A stretch of 64,000 bases of DNA, taken from the NCBI GenBank assembly GCA_965287045.1, contig OZ336884.1, forward strand, positions 45,198,001-45,262,000, read 5' to 3'. The position numbers and the translations under genes are program-made. This stretch comes from Carcharhinus amblyrhynchos (Eukaryota). Below, piece by piece: positions 1-62,253 of this stretch; the stretch's first letter is position 1; each line of letters begins with the position of its first letter. The notes under the pieces are model-generated. The model made no database searches and had not been told where the DNA came from. It saw only the letters and a program-made list of their open reading frames with translations.

Positions 1-309
1 TGGATAATATCTGATTTGGCTAGATCCTTATCCAATAAAAGATCAACACCTTGTAGTGGTCAGCTTGCAATCGTCCCAACTGTACTTGCCCTGTCACCAA
101 GTTACTCTGCAGGTATACGTTAAATGAGGGAACCTCCAAACATTCACTGGTAAGTCCCTTAGCCAGCACGATTTCATCTACTTTGCTTTCAGGCACATTT
201 CCAATGCTTCAAGTTTTGTGCAATCAGCATCTTAGAGAATGCTCATCTATTTTTGTGGGCTCTTAGAAAAGCTAAAGGTTATTTTCCATCGGATATTTAA
301 AGGCACAAT

Positions 310-1305: not shown

Positions 1306-2874
1306 TGCCTAATTCTTTTGAATCACAAAATTAAGCCCAATCTGGTATGGATGGACAGACATGTTGAGTTGTTTCCCCTTTTCTCGTGAAACAGGCATTT
1401 ATGCAAGTTTAAATCAAAAGAATAAATGTTTATTTCTGACAATATCTAAAAGGTCATTGAAACAAATGATCACTCTTCACACATACTATACACATATCAA
1501 GAAAAGTTAATTTTAAAAATGTCACATGCACTTAAAATATTTATAGTGTATAAGAAATAGGTCACTTATTTTAACCGTCCACAAAATGATGGGTGGAACA
1601 TTGCAGGCCTGCAAATTTCTCTTTTGGTTATGGAAAACAAGGGAGGTTGAAAGGTTATCACTTTTCCAGCAAACCCATTGCTGTTTTCCTGTTCTAAGAA
1701 ACTGTAATCCTATTGTTAAAACAAATTAGCTACATTTCACTGCCTGAGATGACTTTCATTTCAAGACAGAGTCCAAACTTGTGCTGTGAGACTGATGGCT
1801 TCCCCCGGTCATCTTGTCCCAAACCGATTCACTGGGCTACAATTGTGGATCATATGATGTTGGCAATCTCCAGTCAGTTTCAGTTATGTGACAACAGCAT
1901 CATTGTCCACAACATGAGTTGATGAACATGTAATTGAAACATAATAGAGAATTAATTGCATCCCATCAACATTTCAGCCATCAGTAGCTTGCTGGGTCTC
2001 TTTATTTTAAATCTAATGTTCATGGGTCCAGTAAATCTAACAGTATAAGTCTCTTCAGTTGAAATGAAGAGGCCAGTCATCAAACCTGGGAAGGCCATTT
2101 ACATTTTAATGACTTTCCAAAGACATGTCCTGACATAAGTTCATCCCTGCCTGTACATAAACACAAAACATGTCACCTGACCAGCCTAGAATCCATTTTG
2201 TGAAGGTAATTGTCCATATTTCAAGTTGCCTTTTCAATAAAGTGTCAATCTTCCAGAGACATTTTACAGTCATAGGACGTGACTGTGCCATTATATTGAT
2301 CATTATAGCTGAACAAAACGCTTACTGAAATGTTGCTGATGAAATCACTTAATTTACTGCAAGGTTCACCCAAGGACTGCAACTATAAGATTGCCTGAAG
2401 CATTTCAAGGTGTAATCAAACACAAGTTTCATTTTATAGTGAAAGTGACAAAATAGCTTGCTTGGTACTCCCAGAGATAAAATATTCTTGATAGATTTCA
2501 AGATCAGATGATGCAATGAGTTAGAAAGCATTTTGTCCTATCATTTCTAGATTAGTGAGAATTCCACACAGGCAGAGGAAATGAAATTCACCAATCCTGG
2601 TTTGGTGTATTATTGACACCAGGACTATTAATGTAATAGAGTATTAAGTTATGGACAGAGTGTTTCCCTAACCTCGGTACATCACACAGCTACAACCACA
2701 CTCATAAATGAATCAGGGGCATGCCAATCAGAGCAATGTCTGCATGAAGTGCAGAGAAGTCTGCATAGCTGTAGAGGTCATGATGTGGATGTGCCGGCGT
2801 TGGACTGGGGTAAACACAGTAAAAAGTCTGACAACACCACGTTTTAGTCCAACCGATTTATTTGATAGTAAACG

Positions 2875-2908
2875 CACAAGCTTTCGAGGTTTCCCTCTTC
2901 GTCAGGTG
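2875..2908 (-). ncRNA. Minimal type I hammerhead ribozyme motif (mirror copy)
   Basis: Exact reverse complement of 2991-3024. Confidence 0.75.
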
Positions 2909-2990
2909 AATGGAGAGTTCTGGCCTCAGACAGAGCATATAAAGCACTTCTGTGCTTTATATGCTCTGTCTGAGGCCAGAACTCTCCATT

Positions 2991-3024
2991 CACCTGACGA
3001 AGAGGGAAACCTCGAAAGCTTGTG
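2991..3024 (+). ncRNA. Minimal type I hammerhead ribozyme motif
   Basis: CAC-CTGACGA-A-GAGG-GAAA-CCTC-GAAA-GC-TT-GTG. This gives the CUGANGA and GAAA cores, stem II GAGG/CCUC, palindromic AAGCUU stem III, a CUU cleavage triplet and stem I CAC/GUG. Confidence 0.75.
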
Positions 3025-3807
3025 CGTTTACTATCAAATAAATCGGTTGGACTAAAACCTGGTGTTGTTAGCTGTAGAGGTCACAGACAATGTGAGGAAA
3101 TACTTGCAAATACAGAAAAATAGAAAATCAAACAATGCCTCATTCCTTATGGTTCAGGGTTCTTGTTTACTCAAAATACTAATACTAATCGTGGTTTCCA
3201 GTTTATTTCATTGGAACTCTTTTGCATATATTGCTAGTTTAGAAAATACAGATGGCACAATCATCTCTGGTTTGTAGTCACACATTCATCAAATTAAATA
3301 GTGTTTCTTAATGTGCAGAAAATGCCCCATTACATTTACAGCCCTGAGCTAACAATAAATAAAAGGAGACAGTAAAACTCACGGTCATATAGTTAACTGC
3401 TATACAGCACAGCATCTTGATATCTAGAATAAGTTGGAGGCATTGATATTTTATTGCCAGCTGTTCCAAAGCTAGAAACTATATAGACCACTAGCCAGCT
3501 GTATGCTTCTGGGAGAGAGGGGACAAAAATGAATTGTGCCACAAATTAACACAGCTAGGCTATACTGCAAAAGAAAGTGACCATTGCTGGTTTAGCAAAA
3601 TATCAAAACTAGTGCCAGCTTCTGACATGGAACGTGTACCCCTTTCTCTTCTTCATGAAGAGTTCAGAAGGCTCAATAATACACACAATGAAATTCAATG
3701 TAAGTATTGCTTTGCTTGAAAGCAGCTGGAGATTATTCAATTATTCTGCCTTTTGATGCTTTATTTTTCTATTTCAGGAAAGTTGGTTAGCTCTGTTGTT
3801 ATACTTT

Positions 3808-4126
3808 CATAGAATCTCTACAGTGCAGAAGGAGGCCATTCAGCTCATCAAATCTGCACCAATCATAATCCCACCCAGGCCCTATTCCAGTAACCCACAT
3901 ATTTACCCTATTCATCCCCCTGACACTTGGGTCAGTTTATCATGGCCAATCAACCTAACCAACACATCTTTGGTCTGTGGGAGGGAACTGAAGTACCCAG
4001 AAGAAACTGAAGCAGCACAGGGAAATATACAAACTCCACATAGTGAGTGACCTGTGACCGGAATTGAACCCTGGTCCCTGGTGCCATATGGCAGCAGTGC
4101 TAACCACTGTGCCACCGTGCTGCCCC
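3808..4126 (-). mobile_element. HE1-type tRNA-derived V-SINE, full length
   Basis: Minus-strand head GGGGCAGCACGGTGGCACAGTGGTTAGCACTGCTGCC, B-box GGTTCAATTCC, V-domain and a 3' tail ending in ttctatg. Confidence 0.85.
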
Positions 4127-5362
4127 GGTCTTCAGATCTATGCTATGCTGTACCGTACATTGTACATTACAGAATCTCTGGATACCACAATAGAGACCTG
4201 CCGATTTGTTATACAGCACTGTAGGTATCACTAGTAAAGCTCAGAATGATATTCTAGCAATTTCTGGACAGATCCAGTCACTGCAGTTTGGTTTTGTGGA
4301 TCTATTTCCAGACTGGTTTATAGAGCAGCATCATTTTCTATTATTAATTGCTATGCAGTGTTCTAGAGATTGTTCTGATGCTGTTAGGGTTTATTAAAGT
4401 TTAAAGAGAAACCCTAACACCCACTATTAACTGACAGAATTATACAACAAAATTCCATATTCTTAAGTAAAAACACATTTTATTTTATATTATAATTAAA
4501 TAAAATGTGCAATATTAACTTAATGTGAAAATGTATGATTGATTATGCGATGAACCCAGGTCGACTCACTCTCTGCTATGAATTTCCTTACATACTAGAG
4601 AAACTTAAAAGTTCACTCACTTCTGTAGGGACCAACCGATAAGGTATGCCACAGCACTCTGGTTTACTTTTGGTATGTTCAGTGTTCCAGCTATTCACCA
4701 ATGTAATTATTATATGAATCTTTCCATGAGCTTTTTTCCAATATAACTCTCCAACTTTTCTACAGTACTTCGTAACTGTGGACATCTCAGTTCCTTGCTC
4801 CAATTGTTGCAGCTACCCAACTGCCTTCTCACAGCTTCTGAGCTAACTCTTCATTCTGATTTCTATCACAAGGGTCTGCGATGACCATTGTAGGATTACT
4901 TCCTCCAGCAGCAAATTGGGAAAGTTTTCCAGTCATCCTTTCCTCACTAAATACAGAGTGAGTCTGTTCCTGAGCTGTATTCCACATGGTACAGGTTAAT
5001 ATTTTCTCGGCTTAACATTAAAGCCTGACTAACAGTTATCTCCTGTTGGCTCTCTCAATCTGGTGAGATACAGTATTCACCAAAGCAAAACTGCAACTAT
5101 CTGTTTTCTGAGTAAATGCCCTGACAGCTTAAACAAAGAACTTATGACCCCAATAACCCATCTCTCAGACAACATGTCATGCTTTGGGCTGGTCTTAAAC
5201 AGAAATACAAATTAAATGCTTTACCACTGTCATAAATTGGCTCCACCAGGTAAGAATTAATTATAAACATTTTTTAACGATCAACTATTTACAGGGTGAT
5301 GAAGTTTCAATGCTCCTAGACATCACTCTAGGATCTAACTGTTGGGACAAGCCCAGATAGGT

Positions 5363-15502: not shown

Positions 15503-16047
15503 GGCCACCTGCGCAAGGATATTTTGGCCCTGGAGGGAGTGCAGAGGAGGTTTACTAGGCTGATACCGGAGTTGAGGGGATTGACCTATGAGGAGAGGCT
15601 GAATAAACTAGGCTTGTACTCGTTAGAGTTTAGAAGAATGAGGGGAGATCTCATTGAGACGTATAAGATGATGAATGGGATGGATAGGATAGAGGTGGAG
15701 AGACTCTTCCCGCTCAAAAAAGACAGTAGGACTAGGGGGCACAGCCTCAAGATAAAGGGGAGGTGGTTTAGAACGGAGTTGAGGAGGAACTTCTTCACTC
15801 AAAGGGTGGTGAATCTCTGGAATTCTCTGCCCGTTGAAGTGGTGGAGGCTGCCTCTCTAAATATTTTTAAGAAGCGGGTTGATGGGTTCTTGATAAGAGA
15901 GGGGATTAAGGGTTATGGGGAGAGGGCGGGAAAGTGGAACTGAGCCACAACAGATCAGCCATGATCTTATTGAATGGCGGGGCAGGCTCGAAGGGCTAGA
16001 TGGCCTACTCCTGCTCCTATTTCTTATGTTCTTATGTTCTTATGTTC
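15503..16047 (+). mobile_element. Young CR1 LINE 3' fragment
   Basis: Open ORF to the natural stop (KDILALEGVQRRFTRLIPELRGL...GKWN), (TTCTTATG)n tail, and TTCACAT repeated at 15496-15502 and 16045-16051. Confidence 0.95.
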
Positions 16048-29720: not shown

Positions 29721-30440
29721 TTTGTTTTTATAATGGAAGGTCCAGAACTGCATTTTAATTAACTAGCAATGGACTACTTGTGAGTTTAACATCATTATCT
29801 TGCTGTTTCTGTAAATTATATTCTCAAATTGGTTCATACAATCATAGAATCATACCGTTCAGAAGAGGCCCATCGAGTTTGCACCGACAAGTTGAAAACA
29901 CTTGACCTCCCACCTAATCCCATTTACCAGTGCTTGGCCAATAGCCTTGAATGCTACAACATGCCAAGTGCTCATCCAGATACTTTTTAAAGGATGTGAG
30001 GCAACCATCCAAGTTGGTGTTGATTGACTATTCTCCTTTGAAGTGCACTGGGATGTCTTAATATGTTAAAGGTGCTATGTAAGTTCAAGTCATTGCTATT
30101 TAATTCCATTAGGTTTTTGTTATCATTTTGTACCTGCATGGCTATCTTTAAACTTCTATGTATCTGCAATCCATGTGTTTCTCCCACTCCTAGTCTGAGC
30201 TTTCATGTATACTTTCAGTTTTTCTTTTTATATAAAGTATCACACATTTTCCTGCATTAGTTTGTAACTGCTATCTATCTGCCCAAACTGACAGAGGTGT
30301 AACTATAGATTCCTGAGACAAACTAATGGCCACATCTTTTCCAGCAAAGGAACAACCATTTACTTCTAAGGTCTCTTTTTGGGTCCTTAACAAGCTCACA
30401 TTCAATGCAGTTGCATCAATACCATGTGCTTTGATTTTTG

Positions 30441-30646
30441 GTGTGGAGTTGCCAGCGTTGGACTGGGGTAGGCATAGTAAATAGTCTCACAACACCAGAT
30501 TAAAAGCTGACAGGTTTATTTGATAGCATGAGCTTTCAGAGCATTGCCCGTTTATCAGGTGACTCTCCTGATAAAGGGGCAACGCTCCAAAAGCTTGTGC
30601 TACCAAAAAAACTGTTGAAATTTAATCGGTGTTGTGAGACTACTTA
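30441..30646. mobile_element. Older PLE-derived hairpin related to 2781-3068, with 12-bp TSD
   Basis: Shares the tail gcgttggactggggta and the arm caacacc..tttatttgatag. Both arms carry a decayed hammerhead (CTGATAAA). CTTTGATTTTTG is repeated at 30429-30440 and 30647-30658. Confidence 0.75.
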
Positions 30647-31374
30647 CTTTGATTTTTGTAATGTCTCCTATGTGACACTTTATCAACACTTTCTGAACAT
30701 CCACATAAGCCAACATCCACCACACTTCCTACAGCAACAGTGCTATTTTCTTTATTCACTGAAACTTGTCAAAGGAAAACTGTTATTCATTGCTGACTGC
30801 CTGTTATTATCCTAACAAAAACCTAGCATTAAATCTTATGAAGAATAATCTGGAGCTCAGTAAGTCCATGTTGTCAGAACGTGCAGCTGCATTTATATAT
30901 TGAAGTTAAGTGAAAACGTTTTGGGCCCCACTTTTTTTTACTTTGGACGATGGTCTATTCACAGGGAAAAATAAATTTGGTGCAATAACCTTTTGGAAGA
31001 GCTTCCATGTGACAGCAGCTTCCAGAAAGTCTTGTTTTGAAGATCTTTTGAGGTTTTTTTCATTTTGTGTTGGCTTTGCTGCATTTTGTTCCATGCATTA
31101 GTTAATTTTGCCAACTGGATCTCCACTTTTGTCTACCAGCACTAATTTGTACGCATGCCTGTGATATTGTGGGGGTGAAGTTACCACTGCACTCCACTGG
31201 TCAATGGGCAGGGTGAGCTGATAAATCACAGGCGAGCCAGGAAATCAGGTTTGCACCTGAATTTCTTGCCTCTCATGATCTTACTAGTACTATGTATCTG
31301 GCAAGATCAGTCTCATGCACAAAGAGGCTGACCTCAATATTTAAATTGCATTTAAATCAGCTACAGAGCCCTGC

Positions 31375-32729: not shown

Positions 32730-33115
32730 AAAGAACATAAGAACATAAGAAATAGGAGCAGGAGTAGGTCATCTAGCCCTTCGAGCCTGCCCCGCCATTC
32801 AATAAGATCATGGCTGATCTGAAGTTGCTCAGTTCCACTTCCCCGCTTTCTCCCCATAATCCTTAATTCCCTTGCCTACCAAAAACCTATCTACACATGA
32901 CTTAAATATACTGAGCGAGGTAGCCTCCACCACTTCAACGGGCAGAGAATTCCAGAGATTCACCACCCTTTGAGTGAAGAAATTCCTTCTCAACTCCAAT
33001 CTAAACTGCCCTCCCCTTATTTTGAGGCTGTGCCCTCTAGTCCTGCTATCCTTTTTAAGCGGGAAGAATCTCTCTACCTCTACCCTATCTATCCCCTTCA
33101 TTATCTTATATGTCT
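32730..33115 (-). mobile_element. Young CR1 3' fragment inserted into a probable Rex1/Babar-type 3' tail
   Basis: ORF 32829-33101 is a CR1 C-terminus with a (TTCTTATG)n tail. The flanks gtctgtatagca.. and gaaacaatgcttttca..aataataaatcaaat join into another LINE 3' end (tentative). Confidence 0.85.
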
Positions 33116-33734
33116 CATCAATACTTTGTATTGTCTTATGTCTCTTATGTCACTTATGTCTCTACAATACAAAAGAAACAATGCTTTTCATTATCTCCTA
33201 ATACCTGTGAAAATAATAAATCAAATGAAACCAAACCCTGAAGATGATTGAGAATGTAGTTAGTAACTGCCAAAAGTGACTGCAGGGTGTTTCTCTAAGC
33301 AATAATGGAATCACATCCTGTCTATAGACAAGGTACTTCTAAAAGCACCCAAAGATTGATTATGATCCCTAGTAGAAGACAGATGGATATAACGACTATG
33401 TCATCTCAAAAATCCTGGGTGTGTTTGCCTAGATAGTCTTGTATTCTGTGTTTCCAATGTCTGCCTGTGTCTGTCTATCAATCTATCTGTGTGTGCTCAG
33501 AGTACAGGCAGATGCAAGTTTTTCCATACTGAAAATGTGCGGTTCAGTGACAGAAATAGCAACCTTGCAAAATGAAACTAGCCATCTTTTGCAGGTATAT
33601 CTCAAAACTCTCTCTCTGACTGGGGAAATTAACCCAAGCAGCAAAATGAGCACAGCTGAAAATTAACTGAAATTTTTCTGCCAAACTACTGAAAACAGGA
33701 ATTGAAGAACCAACAATTTGCCTGCAAAAACCAA

Positions 33735-45119: not shown

Positions 45120-46520
45120 TTACTTCCCTTGTAATCTAGTGGCAATTAAAGTAGCATAGACATGTCCTCTATGTTGTGCTTCCTTAATGGAATCATCCCT
45201 TAGAAGCTTACCCCCATCATGCTCTTCAGGTTCCATGTCCTTCTGCCCTTCATCCTCCAAGGAGCTCTCATTCTGCTCAATTTCTCTCTGCAGCAAGGGC
45301 TCACCTCTTTGCAGCACCAGGTTATGAAGGGCACCACATACAATGATGTGGGAGACCATGACTGGAATATACAGCAGATTTCCATCTAAACATTGAGGGA
45401 ACCAAGTGTATGGTGTCGAAATTTGCTGATGACACCAAGATTGGTGGAACGGCAAATTGTGCAGAGGGTGTGGAGAGTCTGCAGAAGGATCTAGATAGGC
45501 TGGGCGAATGGGCCAGGAATTGGCAAATGAAATTTAATGTTGGCAAGTGTGAGGTTGTCCACTTTGGTAGAAATAATGGTAGGAAGGACTATTACTTACG
45601 TGACAAAAAACTGCAGCATGCGACGGTGCAGAGGGACCTCGGGGTCCTTGTGCATGAGTCGCAAAAACCCAGCCTGCAGGTGCAGCAGGTGGTCAGGAAG
45701 GCGAATGGCATGCTGGCCTTCATAGCGAGGGGGATTGAATATAAAAGTAGGGAGGTCTTGCTGTAGCTGTATAGGGCACTGGTGAGGCCGCAGCTGAAGT
45801 ACTGTGTGCAGTTTTGGTCGCCGCACTTAAGCAAAGATATTTTGGTCTTGGAGGGAGTGCAGAGGAGGTTTACTAGGCTGATTCCGGAGTTGAGGGGGTT
45901 GAACTATGAGGAGAGGCTGAATAAGCTAGGCTTGTACTCGTTAGAGTTTAGAAGAATGAGGGGAGATCTCATTGAGGCGTATAAGATGTTGAATGGGATG
46001 GATAGGATAGAGGTGGAGAGGCTCTTCCCGCTCAGAAAGGACAGTAGGACTAGAGGGCACAGCCTCAAGATAAAGGGGGGGCGGTTTAGAACGGAGTTGA
46101 GGAGGAACTTCTTCACTCAAAGGGTGGTGAATCTCTGGAATTCTCTGCCCGTTGAAGTGGTGGAGGCTGCCTCGCTCAATATTTTTAAGACGCGGGTTGA
46201 TAGGTTTTTGATAGGCAAGGGGATTAAGGGTTATGGGGAGAGGGCGGGAATGTGGAACTGAGCCACTCCAGATCAGCCATGATCTTATTGAATGGCGGGG
46301 CAGGCTTGAGGGGCTAGATGGCCTACTCCTGCTCCTATTTCTTATGTTCTTATGTCTCGAGATATGAACTGTGTTCTGATTCTCATCTGAGGAACTCTGA
46401 GGCCAATACCAGGTGTCACAAGACAGCATTTCAGTGGGTACCCCTTATCTCCAAGTCACCATCCCTACAGACAATCAGTCTCTTTGAATATGTGAGGCAC
46501 TTGAGGATGACTCAGGATAG
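45120..46520 (-). pseudogene. Harbinger (HARBI1-like DDE) transposase remnant, interrupted by CR1
   Basis: 46520-46410 reads ILSHPQVPHIF..GW*LGDKGYPLKCCLVTP. 45392-45120 reads CLDGNLLYIPVMVSHIIVCGALHNLVLQRGE plus an acidic tail. Confidence 0.8.
45398..46355 (+). mobile_element. Young CR1 LINE fragment from RT core to 3' end
   Basis: SKFADDTK..QMKFNVGKC..QRDLGV, one stop at 45764-45766, then an intact frame to GMWN and a (TTCTTATG)n tail. Confidence 0.95.
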
Positions 46521-61678: not shown

Positions 61679-62253
61679 TCTGATGCTCGATGGTTTCCTT
61701 GTGTGCTGATGATTACCACCATCAAAAGAATGTTCTACAGAATTCACAGCCACACCATGGGCATGTGGCCAGCTGTTTATTTTGGCCTTGTATTAATGAT
61801 AAGCCCGATGGGTTTGTCAATATGACTAGCACCAGCAACAATGCCAACAACAGCTCTACTAGCTGAGGAAACAATTTTCTTACAATCTGATGGAAACTTG
61901 ACACATCTTTTGGTGTCATGATTGTGGGAGATGACTATGGCATTATTACCAGTGGCATGTAAAAGACTCCCATGGTCACTTGGCTTTTCCTCCAGGCAAC
62001 ACACAATGGTACCTTCTGGCATAGTACCCAAAGGGAGGGCATTTCTAATGTTTAATTGAGCCTTCTTGTCATAGTAAATATACTGACCAATGTGGATACC
62101 CTCCAGTCTAATGAACAACTCAGTCCTTCCTTTGAACCTGTAAGGATCACAGAATAACACCTTTGCTAAAGAAGTACCACAACCCAGGTCATGAACTTTA
62201 TCCTTGACAATACCCTTGATATAGCCATGACATTCAGCAAAGTCCACAGCTCT
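61679..62253 (-). pseudogene. RPL8: Processed pseudogene of 60S ribosomal protein L8 (uL2)
   Basis: [53 protein letters not shown], then a frameshift and [26 protein letters not shown]. It is intronless and lacks about 29 N-terminal codons. Confidence 0.93.

What the first reader, a model, noticed from the sequence alone, without database searches (positions are those of the whole stretch)
2766..3083. Young palindromic retro-insertion carrying an intact hammerhead ribozyme on each strand
Seen: 117-bp near-perfect inverted arms with a 4-nt loop, a 50-bp unpaired tail, a 15-bp TSD, no credible coding capacity, and a complete minimal hammerhead in each arm. Known: Penelope-like elements carry minimal hammerheads with palindromic stem III in their pLTRs and often have inverted pLTRs. 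Inference: transcription from either strand yields one ribozyme plus its own antisense arm. The plus-strand RNA makes the antisense arm first, whereas both RNAs can fold into about 117-bp dsRNA that blocks cleavage and could feed ADAR or Dicer. It could be a self-propagating non-autonomous retrozyme-like unit, or a single truncated PLE insertion.
Basis: partly seen in the sequence, partly recalled or inferred. Interest (0 to 1): 0.7.

Follow-up and report, generated by a model that had tools for sequence, protein, structure and literature searches.

The report
Double-primed shark Penelope retrotransposon stump
This mirror-image insertion is a short stump of a very common Penelope-type jumping gene of a known layout, likely in a shark, and its many sister copies land in a symmetric DNA target, which suggests that both cut ends of the chromosome each start their own copy of the element's RNA.

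Summary
The palindrome, duplication and two minimal hammerhead motifs are real, and three related organisms carry the empty site. It is not a self-amplifying hairpin: its central junction occurs once in 2.9 Gb, while the ribozyme region has at least 18,964 matches and belongs to a 3-kb RT/GIY-YIG Penelope-like element of Neptune type. Sister insertions are head-to-head pairs of 5'-truncated arms from about 90 bp to several kb, one with the tail, one without: the published layout. The ribozyme needs a dimer and is predicted to be locked in the hairpin on both strands. The family adds mechanism: targets read CTG-N16-CAG around a 12-bp duplication (58 of 84 sites, then 24 of 33; control 2.4%); arms end at two sites about 38 nt apart with microhomology at both target ends; either arm can be the longer; rare insertions join arms of two subfamilies. 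Best reading: a symmetric staggered cut, both 3' ends priming reverse transcription, cDNAs joined head to head. The scan noted this layout and double priming before in other genomes; I found the target motif and chimeric arms neither in its notes nor in eight literature searches.

The parts
2761..2763 (+). CTG, left half of the symmetric target motif (here CTG-N17-CAG in the empty site; family mode N16)
   Evidence: sequence; family target test
2766..2780 (+). left target-site duplication: 15 nt apparent, 2766-2778 (13 nt) by the predicted cut; GT at 2777-2778 is 2-nt microhomology with the element RNA
   Evidence: single copy in empty sites
2779..2830 (-). tail of the long arm; ends at the ATG (2781-2779) that starts the ORF in tandem copies; first priming site
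   Evidence: L087 pLTR-tail-ATG-ORF; arm-end distribution
2831..2947 (-). tail-bearing pLTR arm (sense on minus strand), 5'-truncated at about -42 from the hammerhead C3; one derived substitution at 2840
2875..2908 (-). minimal hammerhead motif of the left arm (C3 at 2905, predicted cut after 2878)
2948..2951 (.). head-to-head junction: one untemplated T (2948) then TCT of the right arm; unique in the genome
2949..3068 (+). tail-less pLTR arm, 5'-truncated at about -45, 3' end 12 nt short of the family's usual second priming site
2991..3024 (+). minimal type I hammerhead motif: stem I CAC/GTG (3 bp), CTGACGA 2994-3000, extra A 3001, stem II 3002-3013, GAAA 3014-3017, self-complementary AGCT in place of stem III, predicted cut after 3021
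   Evidence: matches the min-HHR description of PMC4209133
3037..3042 (+). AATAAA of the pLTR (mirror copy in the left arm); role as poly(A) signal is inferred
   Evidence: sequence; kept in the family (pattern)
3069..3083 (+). right target-site duplication (3069-3081 by the predicted cut)
3084..3086 (+). CAG, right half of the symmetric target motif

Best explanation
This is a one-off, 5'-truncated insertion of a Neptune-type Penelope-like retrotransposon, likely made when the element's protein cut both strands of a symmetric target and each 3' end primed its own reverse transcription. Shown: head-to-head arms, one-sided tail, duplication, empty site in relatives, parent RT/GIY-YIG ORF, CTG-N16/17-CAG target, two arm-end sites about 38 nt apart, microhomology at both target ends, variable junctions. 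Inferred: a protein dimer cuts 12-13 nt apart leaving 3' overhangs; one end primes at the ORF start (tail arm), the other about 38 nt upstream (tail-less arm), nearly always on RNA from one source, probably one molecule; both cDNAs stop early and are joined at their 3' ends through 0-5 nt microhomology or a few filler bases. The hammerheads are passengers from the pLTR: they need a same-sense partner and are predicted to be zipped into 117-bp dsRNA in read-through RNA from either strand.
For: Parent element: L087 is pLTR-ORF-pLTR (3.0 kb) with an inverted copy; RVT_1 E=7e-10, C-terminal GIY-YIG-type stretch and CX4CXXC linker; nearest proteins from sharks, 83-90% identical. Target symmetry: at least 5 of 6 matches to CTG-N16-CAG in 58 of 84 sites against 2.4% of 2,790 control windows; other spacings 8-25 of 84; without shifting, TG at -4/-3 in 27 and CA at +3/+4 in 29 of 32 sites with a 12-nt duplication, background TG 7.6%; replicated in 24 of 33 further sites. 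Arm ends: +124..130 in 67 of 69 and +85..90 in 59 of 69. Microhomology with the RNA averages 1.5 nt (n=63) and 1.4 nt (n=64) at the two target ends, 0.33 expected. The tail-less arm reaches more than 30 nt further upstream in 17 of 91 insertions, so it cannot be a copy of the tail arm there, and the tail arm cannot be a copy of it. Loopless palindromes centred on AAGCTT in 13 of 50 listed short insertions fit two cDNA ends annealing. Chimeric arms: L150, L044, L034, L115 (4 of 91) and L193, L194, L196, L197. In vitro, the anole PLE cuts and extends both strands from two internal start sites that define the tail, is modelled as a dimer, and does not need hammerhead cleavage (PMC11167929). P(stem II) falls from 0.96 in the lone arm to 1e-16 in the whole + strand.
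Against: Chimeras are rare: 4-5 among about 990 short palindromes sorted by stem II class, where random pairing of RNAs would give about 47%; later gene conversion could make that many, and L044 and L194 had no duplication found. 28 of 91 junctions are symmetric within 5 nt, some at 280-520 nt arm length, which fold-back copying explains as well; part of that sample was chosen for its centre. Cut positions and dimer are inferred, not observed. The anole protein preferred ATT targets and primed without homology (PMC11167929), unlike this family. This copy has the less common N17 spacing and a short tail-less end.
Confidence: 0.8

Rival explanations
1. Same element, but the second arm arises by fold-back: one cDNA (or an antisense RNA, as proposed in PMC3846280) primes on itself and copies itself, so only one target end primes on RNA; or a mixed route in which both ends prime but one cDNA folds back and anneals to the other.
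For: Arms are nearly always of one subfamily (about 99.5% by stem II class); 22 of 91 pairs have no substitution, 32 rare variants are shared by both arms; many junctions are near-symmetric.
Against: Pure fold-back cannot give both a one-sided tail and a longer tail-less arm (17 of 91, up to 241 nt in simple insertions), loopless centres (13 of 50), microhomology at both target ends or two-subfamily arms.
Confidence: 0.15
2. The 318-bp hairpin is a self-propagating non-autonomous unit (retrozyme- or MITE-like) that is copied whole.
For: 25 other insertions of similar size and centre came up as best matches; some junction sequences recur 3-4 times among 50.
Against: The exact junction occurs once; the similar centres are a product of ranking by likeness to the query; identical junctions occur on different stem II subfamilies, at microhomologies; lengths are continuous; no tandem same-sense short repeats; no A>G excess among variants shared by both arms (2 of 32).
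Confidence: 0.02
3. The insertion has been kept as a host RNA element (self-cleaving switch, or source of dsRNA for editing or small RNAs).
For: A 117-bp hairpin (-243.6 kcal/mol for the + strand) would form if transcribed; the insertion is shared with organism A.
Against: Absent in three close relatives; one of many thousands of like arms; the ribozyme cannot fold as a monomer, and a minimal PLE hammerhead showed no detectable cleavage as a single motif (PMC4209133).
Confidence: 0.03

Closest known systems
Insertion unit of endonuclease-positive Penelope-like elements: inverted 5'-truncated copy and 30-40 bp one-sided tail (PMC8557442 Fig. 2 legend and text; PMC3846280)
   Same: Head-to-head inverted pLTRs, tail at one end only, short duplication, partial tandems of the full element.
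   Different: Here both arms are cut down to the pLTR; duplication is a regular 12-13 nt inside a symmetric CTG..CAG target (8-10 bp and AT-rich targets in the papers read); data favour two priming events over the antisense self-priming proposed in PMC3846280.
Neptune-group PLEs (CX2-5CxxC linker between RT and GIY-YIG; PMC8557442)
   Same: C-terminal endonuclease with CCHH-type motif and CX4CXXC linker in the parent ORF; 44% identity to turtle proteins with PF01541.
   Different: Clade placed by motif only, no tree; the paper itself finds Neptune paraphyletic.
Minimal type I hammerheads of metazoan PLEs (PMC4209133)
   Same: Extra nucleotide between 9 and 10.1, G10.1-C11.1, palindromic 15.2-16.2, no own helix III, very variable helix II, pairs on opposite strands 100-700 bp apart.
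   Different: Helix II (3-5 bp) and helix I (3 bp) are shorter than in the Schistosoma motifs described; activity untested.
PAc (Poseidon) of Anolis carolinensis in vitro (PMC11167929)
   Same: Two internal RT start sites bounding the tail, both strands extended, uncleaved RNA as template.
   Different: PAc starts 111-118 nt inside the ORF, prefers ATT, primes without homology; here the tail ends at the ATG, target is CTG-N16-CAG, 1-4 nt microhomology is common.
Non-LTR retrozymes (10.64898/2026.07.22.740005; PMC7229834 seen in search listing only)
   Same: Non-coding, type I hammerhead, PLE-related.
   Different: Retrozymes are head-to-tail tandem repeats with at least two same-sense ribozymes; this is a head-to-head pair with one per strand.

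Membership tests
EN+ Penelope-like element insertion | pLTR belonging to an element with one RT plus C-terminal GIY-YIG ORF | tested here: met
   L087, L063, L064, L082; RVT_1 hit; Pfam GIY-YIG not hit in this genome's copy but the C-terminus aligns end to end with P0026, which carries PF01541
EN+ Penelope-like element insertion | inverted 5'-truncated copy at the 5' end | tested here: met
   93 two-armed insertions among the loci then held; this one included
EN+ Penelope-like element insertion | 30-40 bp tail at one end only | tested here: met
   distance between the two arm ends 34-43 nt in 55 of 62; 52 nt here
EN+ Penelope-like element insertion | target-site duplication with empty site | tested here: met
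Neptune group | CX2-5CxxC linker between RT and endonuclease | tested here: met
   PCHSNLCKTC in L082; definition from PMC8557442
Neptune group | RT phylogeny with named Neptune references | not tested
   no reference set fetched
PLE minimal type I hammerhead | conserved core, extra nt after A9, helix II, palindromic 15.2-16.2, NUH site | tested here: met
   extra A in 163 of 165 cores; GCT[T/A] after GAAA in 161 of 165; the common helix II variants keep 3-5 bp with different sequences (the core was part of the search pattern)
PLE minimal type I hammerhead | self-cleavage (dimer or protein-assisted) | not testable with these tools
   no RNA data; no excess of arms starting at the cut site among 50 listed junctions
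Canonical hammerhead (Rfam models) | helix III closed within one molecule; Rfam match | tested here: not met
   no hammerhead family at E<=5; helix III would need a 0-nt loop
Non-LTR retrozyme | head-to-tail tandem units with at least two same-sense hammerheads | tested here: not met
   one sense copy per strand; definition from 10.64898/2026.07.22.740005
Non-LTR retrozyme | unit amplifies as such (shared junction, different flanks) | tested here: not met
   junction found once
Non-LTR retrozyme | circular RNA expressed | not testable with these tools
   no RNA run holding the locus

The most novel reading that the evidence does not exclude
Shark Neptune-type Penelope elements integrate by symmetric double target-priming: a dimer reads CTG-N16-CAG, cuts 12 nt apart, and both ends reverse-transcribe from two fixed sites on the RNA, so that the inverted arm, the one-sided tail and the 12-bp duplication all come from one reaction; rare two-subfamily insertions record two different RNAs in one event.
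Probability: 0.65. Interest if true: 0.6.

Novelty: new member of a known kind. Interest (0 to 1): 0.4.

Why it matters
The locus itself is ordinary. The family matters because how Penelope-like elements make their inverted arms and tails is stated as open (PMC8557442, PMC3846280, PMC11167929). Thousands of young copies give a defined target, cut spacing and two priming sites, which turn that question into a simple cleavage-and-extension assay. It also means this genome holds thousands of near-perfect palindromes that would give long dsRNA where transcribed.

Tried and rejected
Rfam scan of 1500-4500: only generic microRNA-hairpin matches below gathering score, no hammerhead. RNA evidence: no RNA holder listed, so expression, editing and cleavage are untested. 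Runs X11 and X12 had no cover at the site, and X4 none at the right junction: uninformative. Hammerhead-cleavage footprint: looked by eye for arms starting at the predicted cut among 50 listed junctions; none has both arms there and about 2 of 100 arm ends lie there, no peak. ADAR footprint: no A>G excess. Energy of the active hammerhead dimer could not be computed (pseudoknotted, value invalid). Tail hairpin flanked by the two priming sites: weak (-3.7 to -8.2 kcal/mol for common variants), not kept in older families, no covariation test run; not used. Apparent clustering of junctions near -42 rejected as ranking bias. Host gene: 68 of 82 long frames in the window scanned, no host exon near the site; short exons not examined. 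Rows dropped: 4 of 93 insertions had no duplication found and 5 were doubtful before the target count (84 left); 3 of 36 in the replication; in the junction list L113 and the second L107 row are mis-mapped, L055 doubtful, L087 tandem; L192 and L195 are point mutants, not chimeras; L198, L023, L053, L079 doubtful.

Full report
Observation. The window shows a 15-nt direct repeat (2766-2780, 3069-3083), 50 unpaired bases, and two 117-nt inverted arms (2831-2947, 2952-3068) with one mismatch and 4 nt between. Each strand carries one CTGACGA-A-GAGG/GAAA/CCTC-GAAA-GC-TT motif. Rfam finds no hammerhead model here. Public contigs support both outer junctions in run X1 (possibly the source) and X5 (organism A, flanks about 0.6% different) and the left junction in X4; runs X6, X7 and X13 (organisms B, C, E; flanks about 1.4, 1.5 and 5% different) each have one contig running from 2765 straight to 3069, the empty site. 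The insertion is therefore real and recent, but older than the split from organism A. No contig spans the centre.

What it is. The genome is 2.92 Gb. A 26-mer just upstream of the ribozyme core matches 18,964 times, a 24-mer further upstream 10,421 times, often as minus/plus pairs 59 bp to 4.8 kb apart; this copy's subfamily 33-mer 542 times; its exact junction once. Following long arms leads to a 3.0-kb pLTR-ORF-pLTR unit (L087) whose tail ends at the ATG of the ORF. The ORF has an RT (RVT_1, E 7e-10), a CX4CXXC linker and a GIY-YIG-type C-terminus that aligns with a turtle protein carrying PF01541. The linker marks Neptune and Nematis types (PMC8557442, passages). Nearest proteins come from sharks (83-90%), so the host is likely a shark. 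Inverted 5'-truncated copies and a one-sided 30-40 bp tail are the published layout (PMC8557442, passages; PMC3846280, passages and Discussion). Minimal hammerheads with an extra base after A9 and a palindromic stem III stub, including pairs on opposite strands 100-700 bp apart ascribed to truncated PLEs, are in PMC4209133 (Results and Discussion read).

Not a self-amplifying unit. 279 palindromes are centred in the same region; the 50 listed show many junctions, the commonest 3-4 times and at short microhomologies (counted by eye). Identical junctions sit on different stem II subfamilies. Arm 5' ends run from +36 to about -2,900 (family numbering, hammerhead C3 = 0). Retrozymes are head-to-tail repeats with two same-sense ribozymes (10.64898/2026.07.22.740005, first part and passages); this is not.

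The ribozyme. In 165 family cores the extra A is kept in 163 and GCT followed by T or A in 161; stem II changes sequence and length while keeping 3-5 pairs, which suggests selection in the active element. Stem III needs a second same-sense copy. Because the arms are head to head, both strands make the antisense arm first; the predicted probability of stem II is 0.96 in the lone arm and 1e-16 in the whole strand. Both arms run through the cut site, so the template was not cut there, or was rejoined; arms do not pile up at the cut site. This agrees with the anole element, where uncleaved RNA is the substrate (PMC11167929, main text read, supplements not seen).

How it was likely made. Of 93 two-armed insertions, 84 had a usable duplication, 12-13 nt in 57. 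Rebuilt targets match CTG-N16-CAG at 5 or 6 of 6 positions in 58 of 84 (control 2.4% of 2,790); anchored only on 12-nt duplications, TG stands at -4/-3 in 27 and CA at +3/+4 in 29 of 32; 24 of 33 further sites replicate it. This site reads CTG-N17-CAG, giving a 13-nt duplication. Tail arms end at +124..130 (67 of 69), tail-less arms at +85..90 (59 of 69); both target ends share more bases with the RNA than chance (means 1.5 and 1.4 against 0.33). The tail-less arm reaches over 30 nt further upstream in 17 of 91 insertions and the tail arm in about 10, so neither is always a copy of the other. 13 of 50 very short insertions are loopless palindromes on AAGCTT. Four of 91 insertions join arms of two subfamilies, L150 most clearly, inside a perfect target with its duplication; a directed search found 7 candidates, 4 real and 1 doubtful, against 615 and about 370 concordant ones. 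The simplest model: symmetric staggered cut, each 3' end primes its own cDNA at one of two fixed RNA sites, and the truncated cDNAs are joined head to head. The cut, the dimer and the joining step are inferred.

Against this reading. Chimeras are so rare (about 0.5%) that gene conversion could explain them, and their rarity requires that both arms nearly always use one source. Many junctions are near-symmetric, so fold-back may contribute. Samples were drawn by pattern, mostly from the first contigs, and part were chosen for their centre. The anole protein shows another target preference and no microhomology.

Novelty. The locus is a new member of a known kind. Eight literature searches showed no report of a symmetric target consensus or two-subfamily arms for a PLE; subscription papers, Repbase and supplements were not seen. 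The scan's own notes hold seven like palindromes from other genomes, one with a double-priming reading, none by sequence and none with the target or chimera words; I had stated my reading before seeing them. Interest 0.4: ordinary object, useful handle on an open mechanism.

Noticed in passing
window 30428-30650: A second, older palindromic Penelope insertion of a related family: tail arm from 30439, short centre, decayed hammerheads, apparent 12-nt duplication with TG at -4/-3 on the left.
   Followed up: partly
L150 1329-1550 (G000:C1:13923227-13926259): Single insertion in a perfect CTG-N16-CAG target whose two arms differ at 8 subfamily-diagnostic sites; clearest two-template candidate.
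   Followed up: yes
L186, L189 and 11 more rows: Loopless palindromes centred on the hammerhead's AAGCTT recur (13 of 50 listed, of 531 in the genome), 7 of them in the GCG subfamily whose local self-complementarity is longer.
   Followed up: partly
L044 tail end: The tail arm runs about 34 nt on into the ORF start, so its template was a pLTR-to-ORF read-through RNA.
   Followed up: partly
L064, L082, L083, L087 ORF before the RT core: The same in-frame stop at a CpG site in several copies, absent in L063; L082 and L083 look like a segmental duplicate.
   Followed up: partly
window 61700-62250 (-): Decayed intronless ribosomal protein L2/L8-type processed pseudogene (Ribosomal_L2_C, E 4e-19).
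   Followed up: partly
window 15506-16041, 32731-33117, 45362-46355: Three 88-94% alike copies of a LINE-like 3' region, one with an RT fragment.
   Followed up: no
window 2936-2943 and mirror: TATAAAG reads on the antisense strand of the pLTR just inside the junction; a bidirectional TATA was suggested for rotifer pLTRs (PMC3846280). Untested.
   Followed up: no
L077, L149, L175, L164: Family copies inserted into or next to older Penelope palindromes; pLTRs seem to hold usable targets.
   Followed up: no
G000:C1:5337823-5521851: Seven same-strand copies spaced 22-52 kb apart, likely a large tandem duplication.
   Followed up: no
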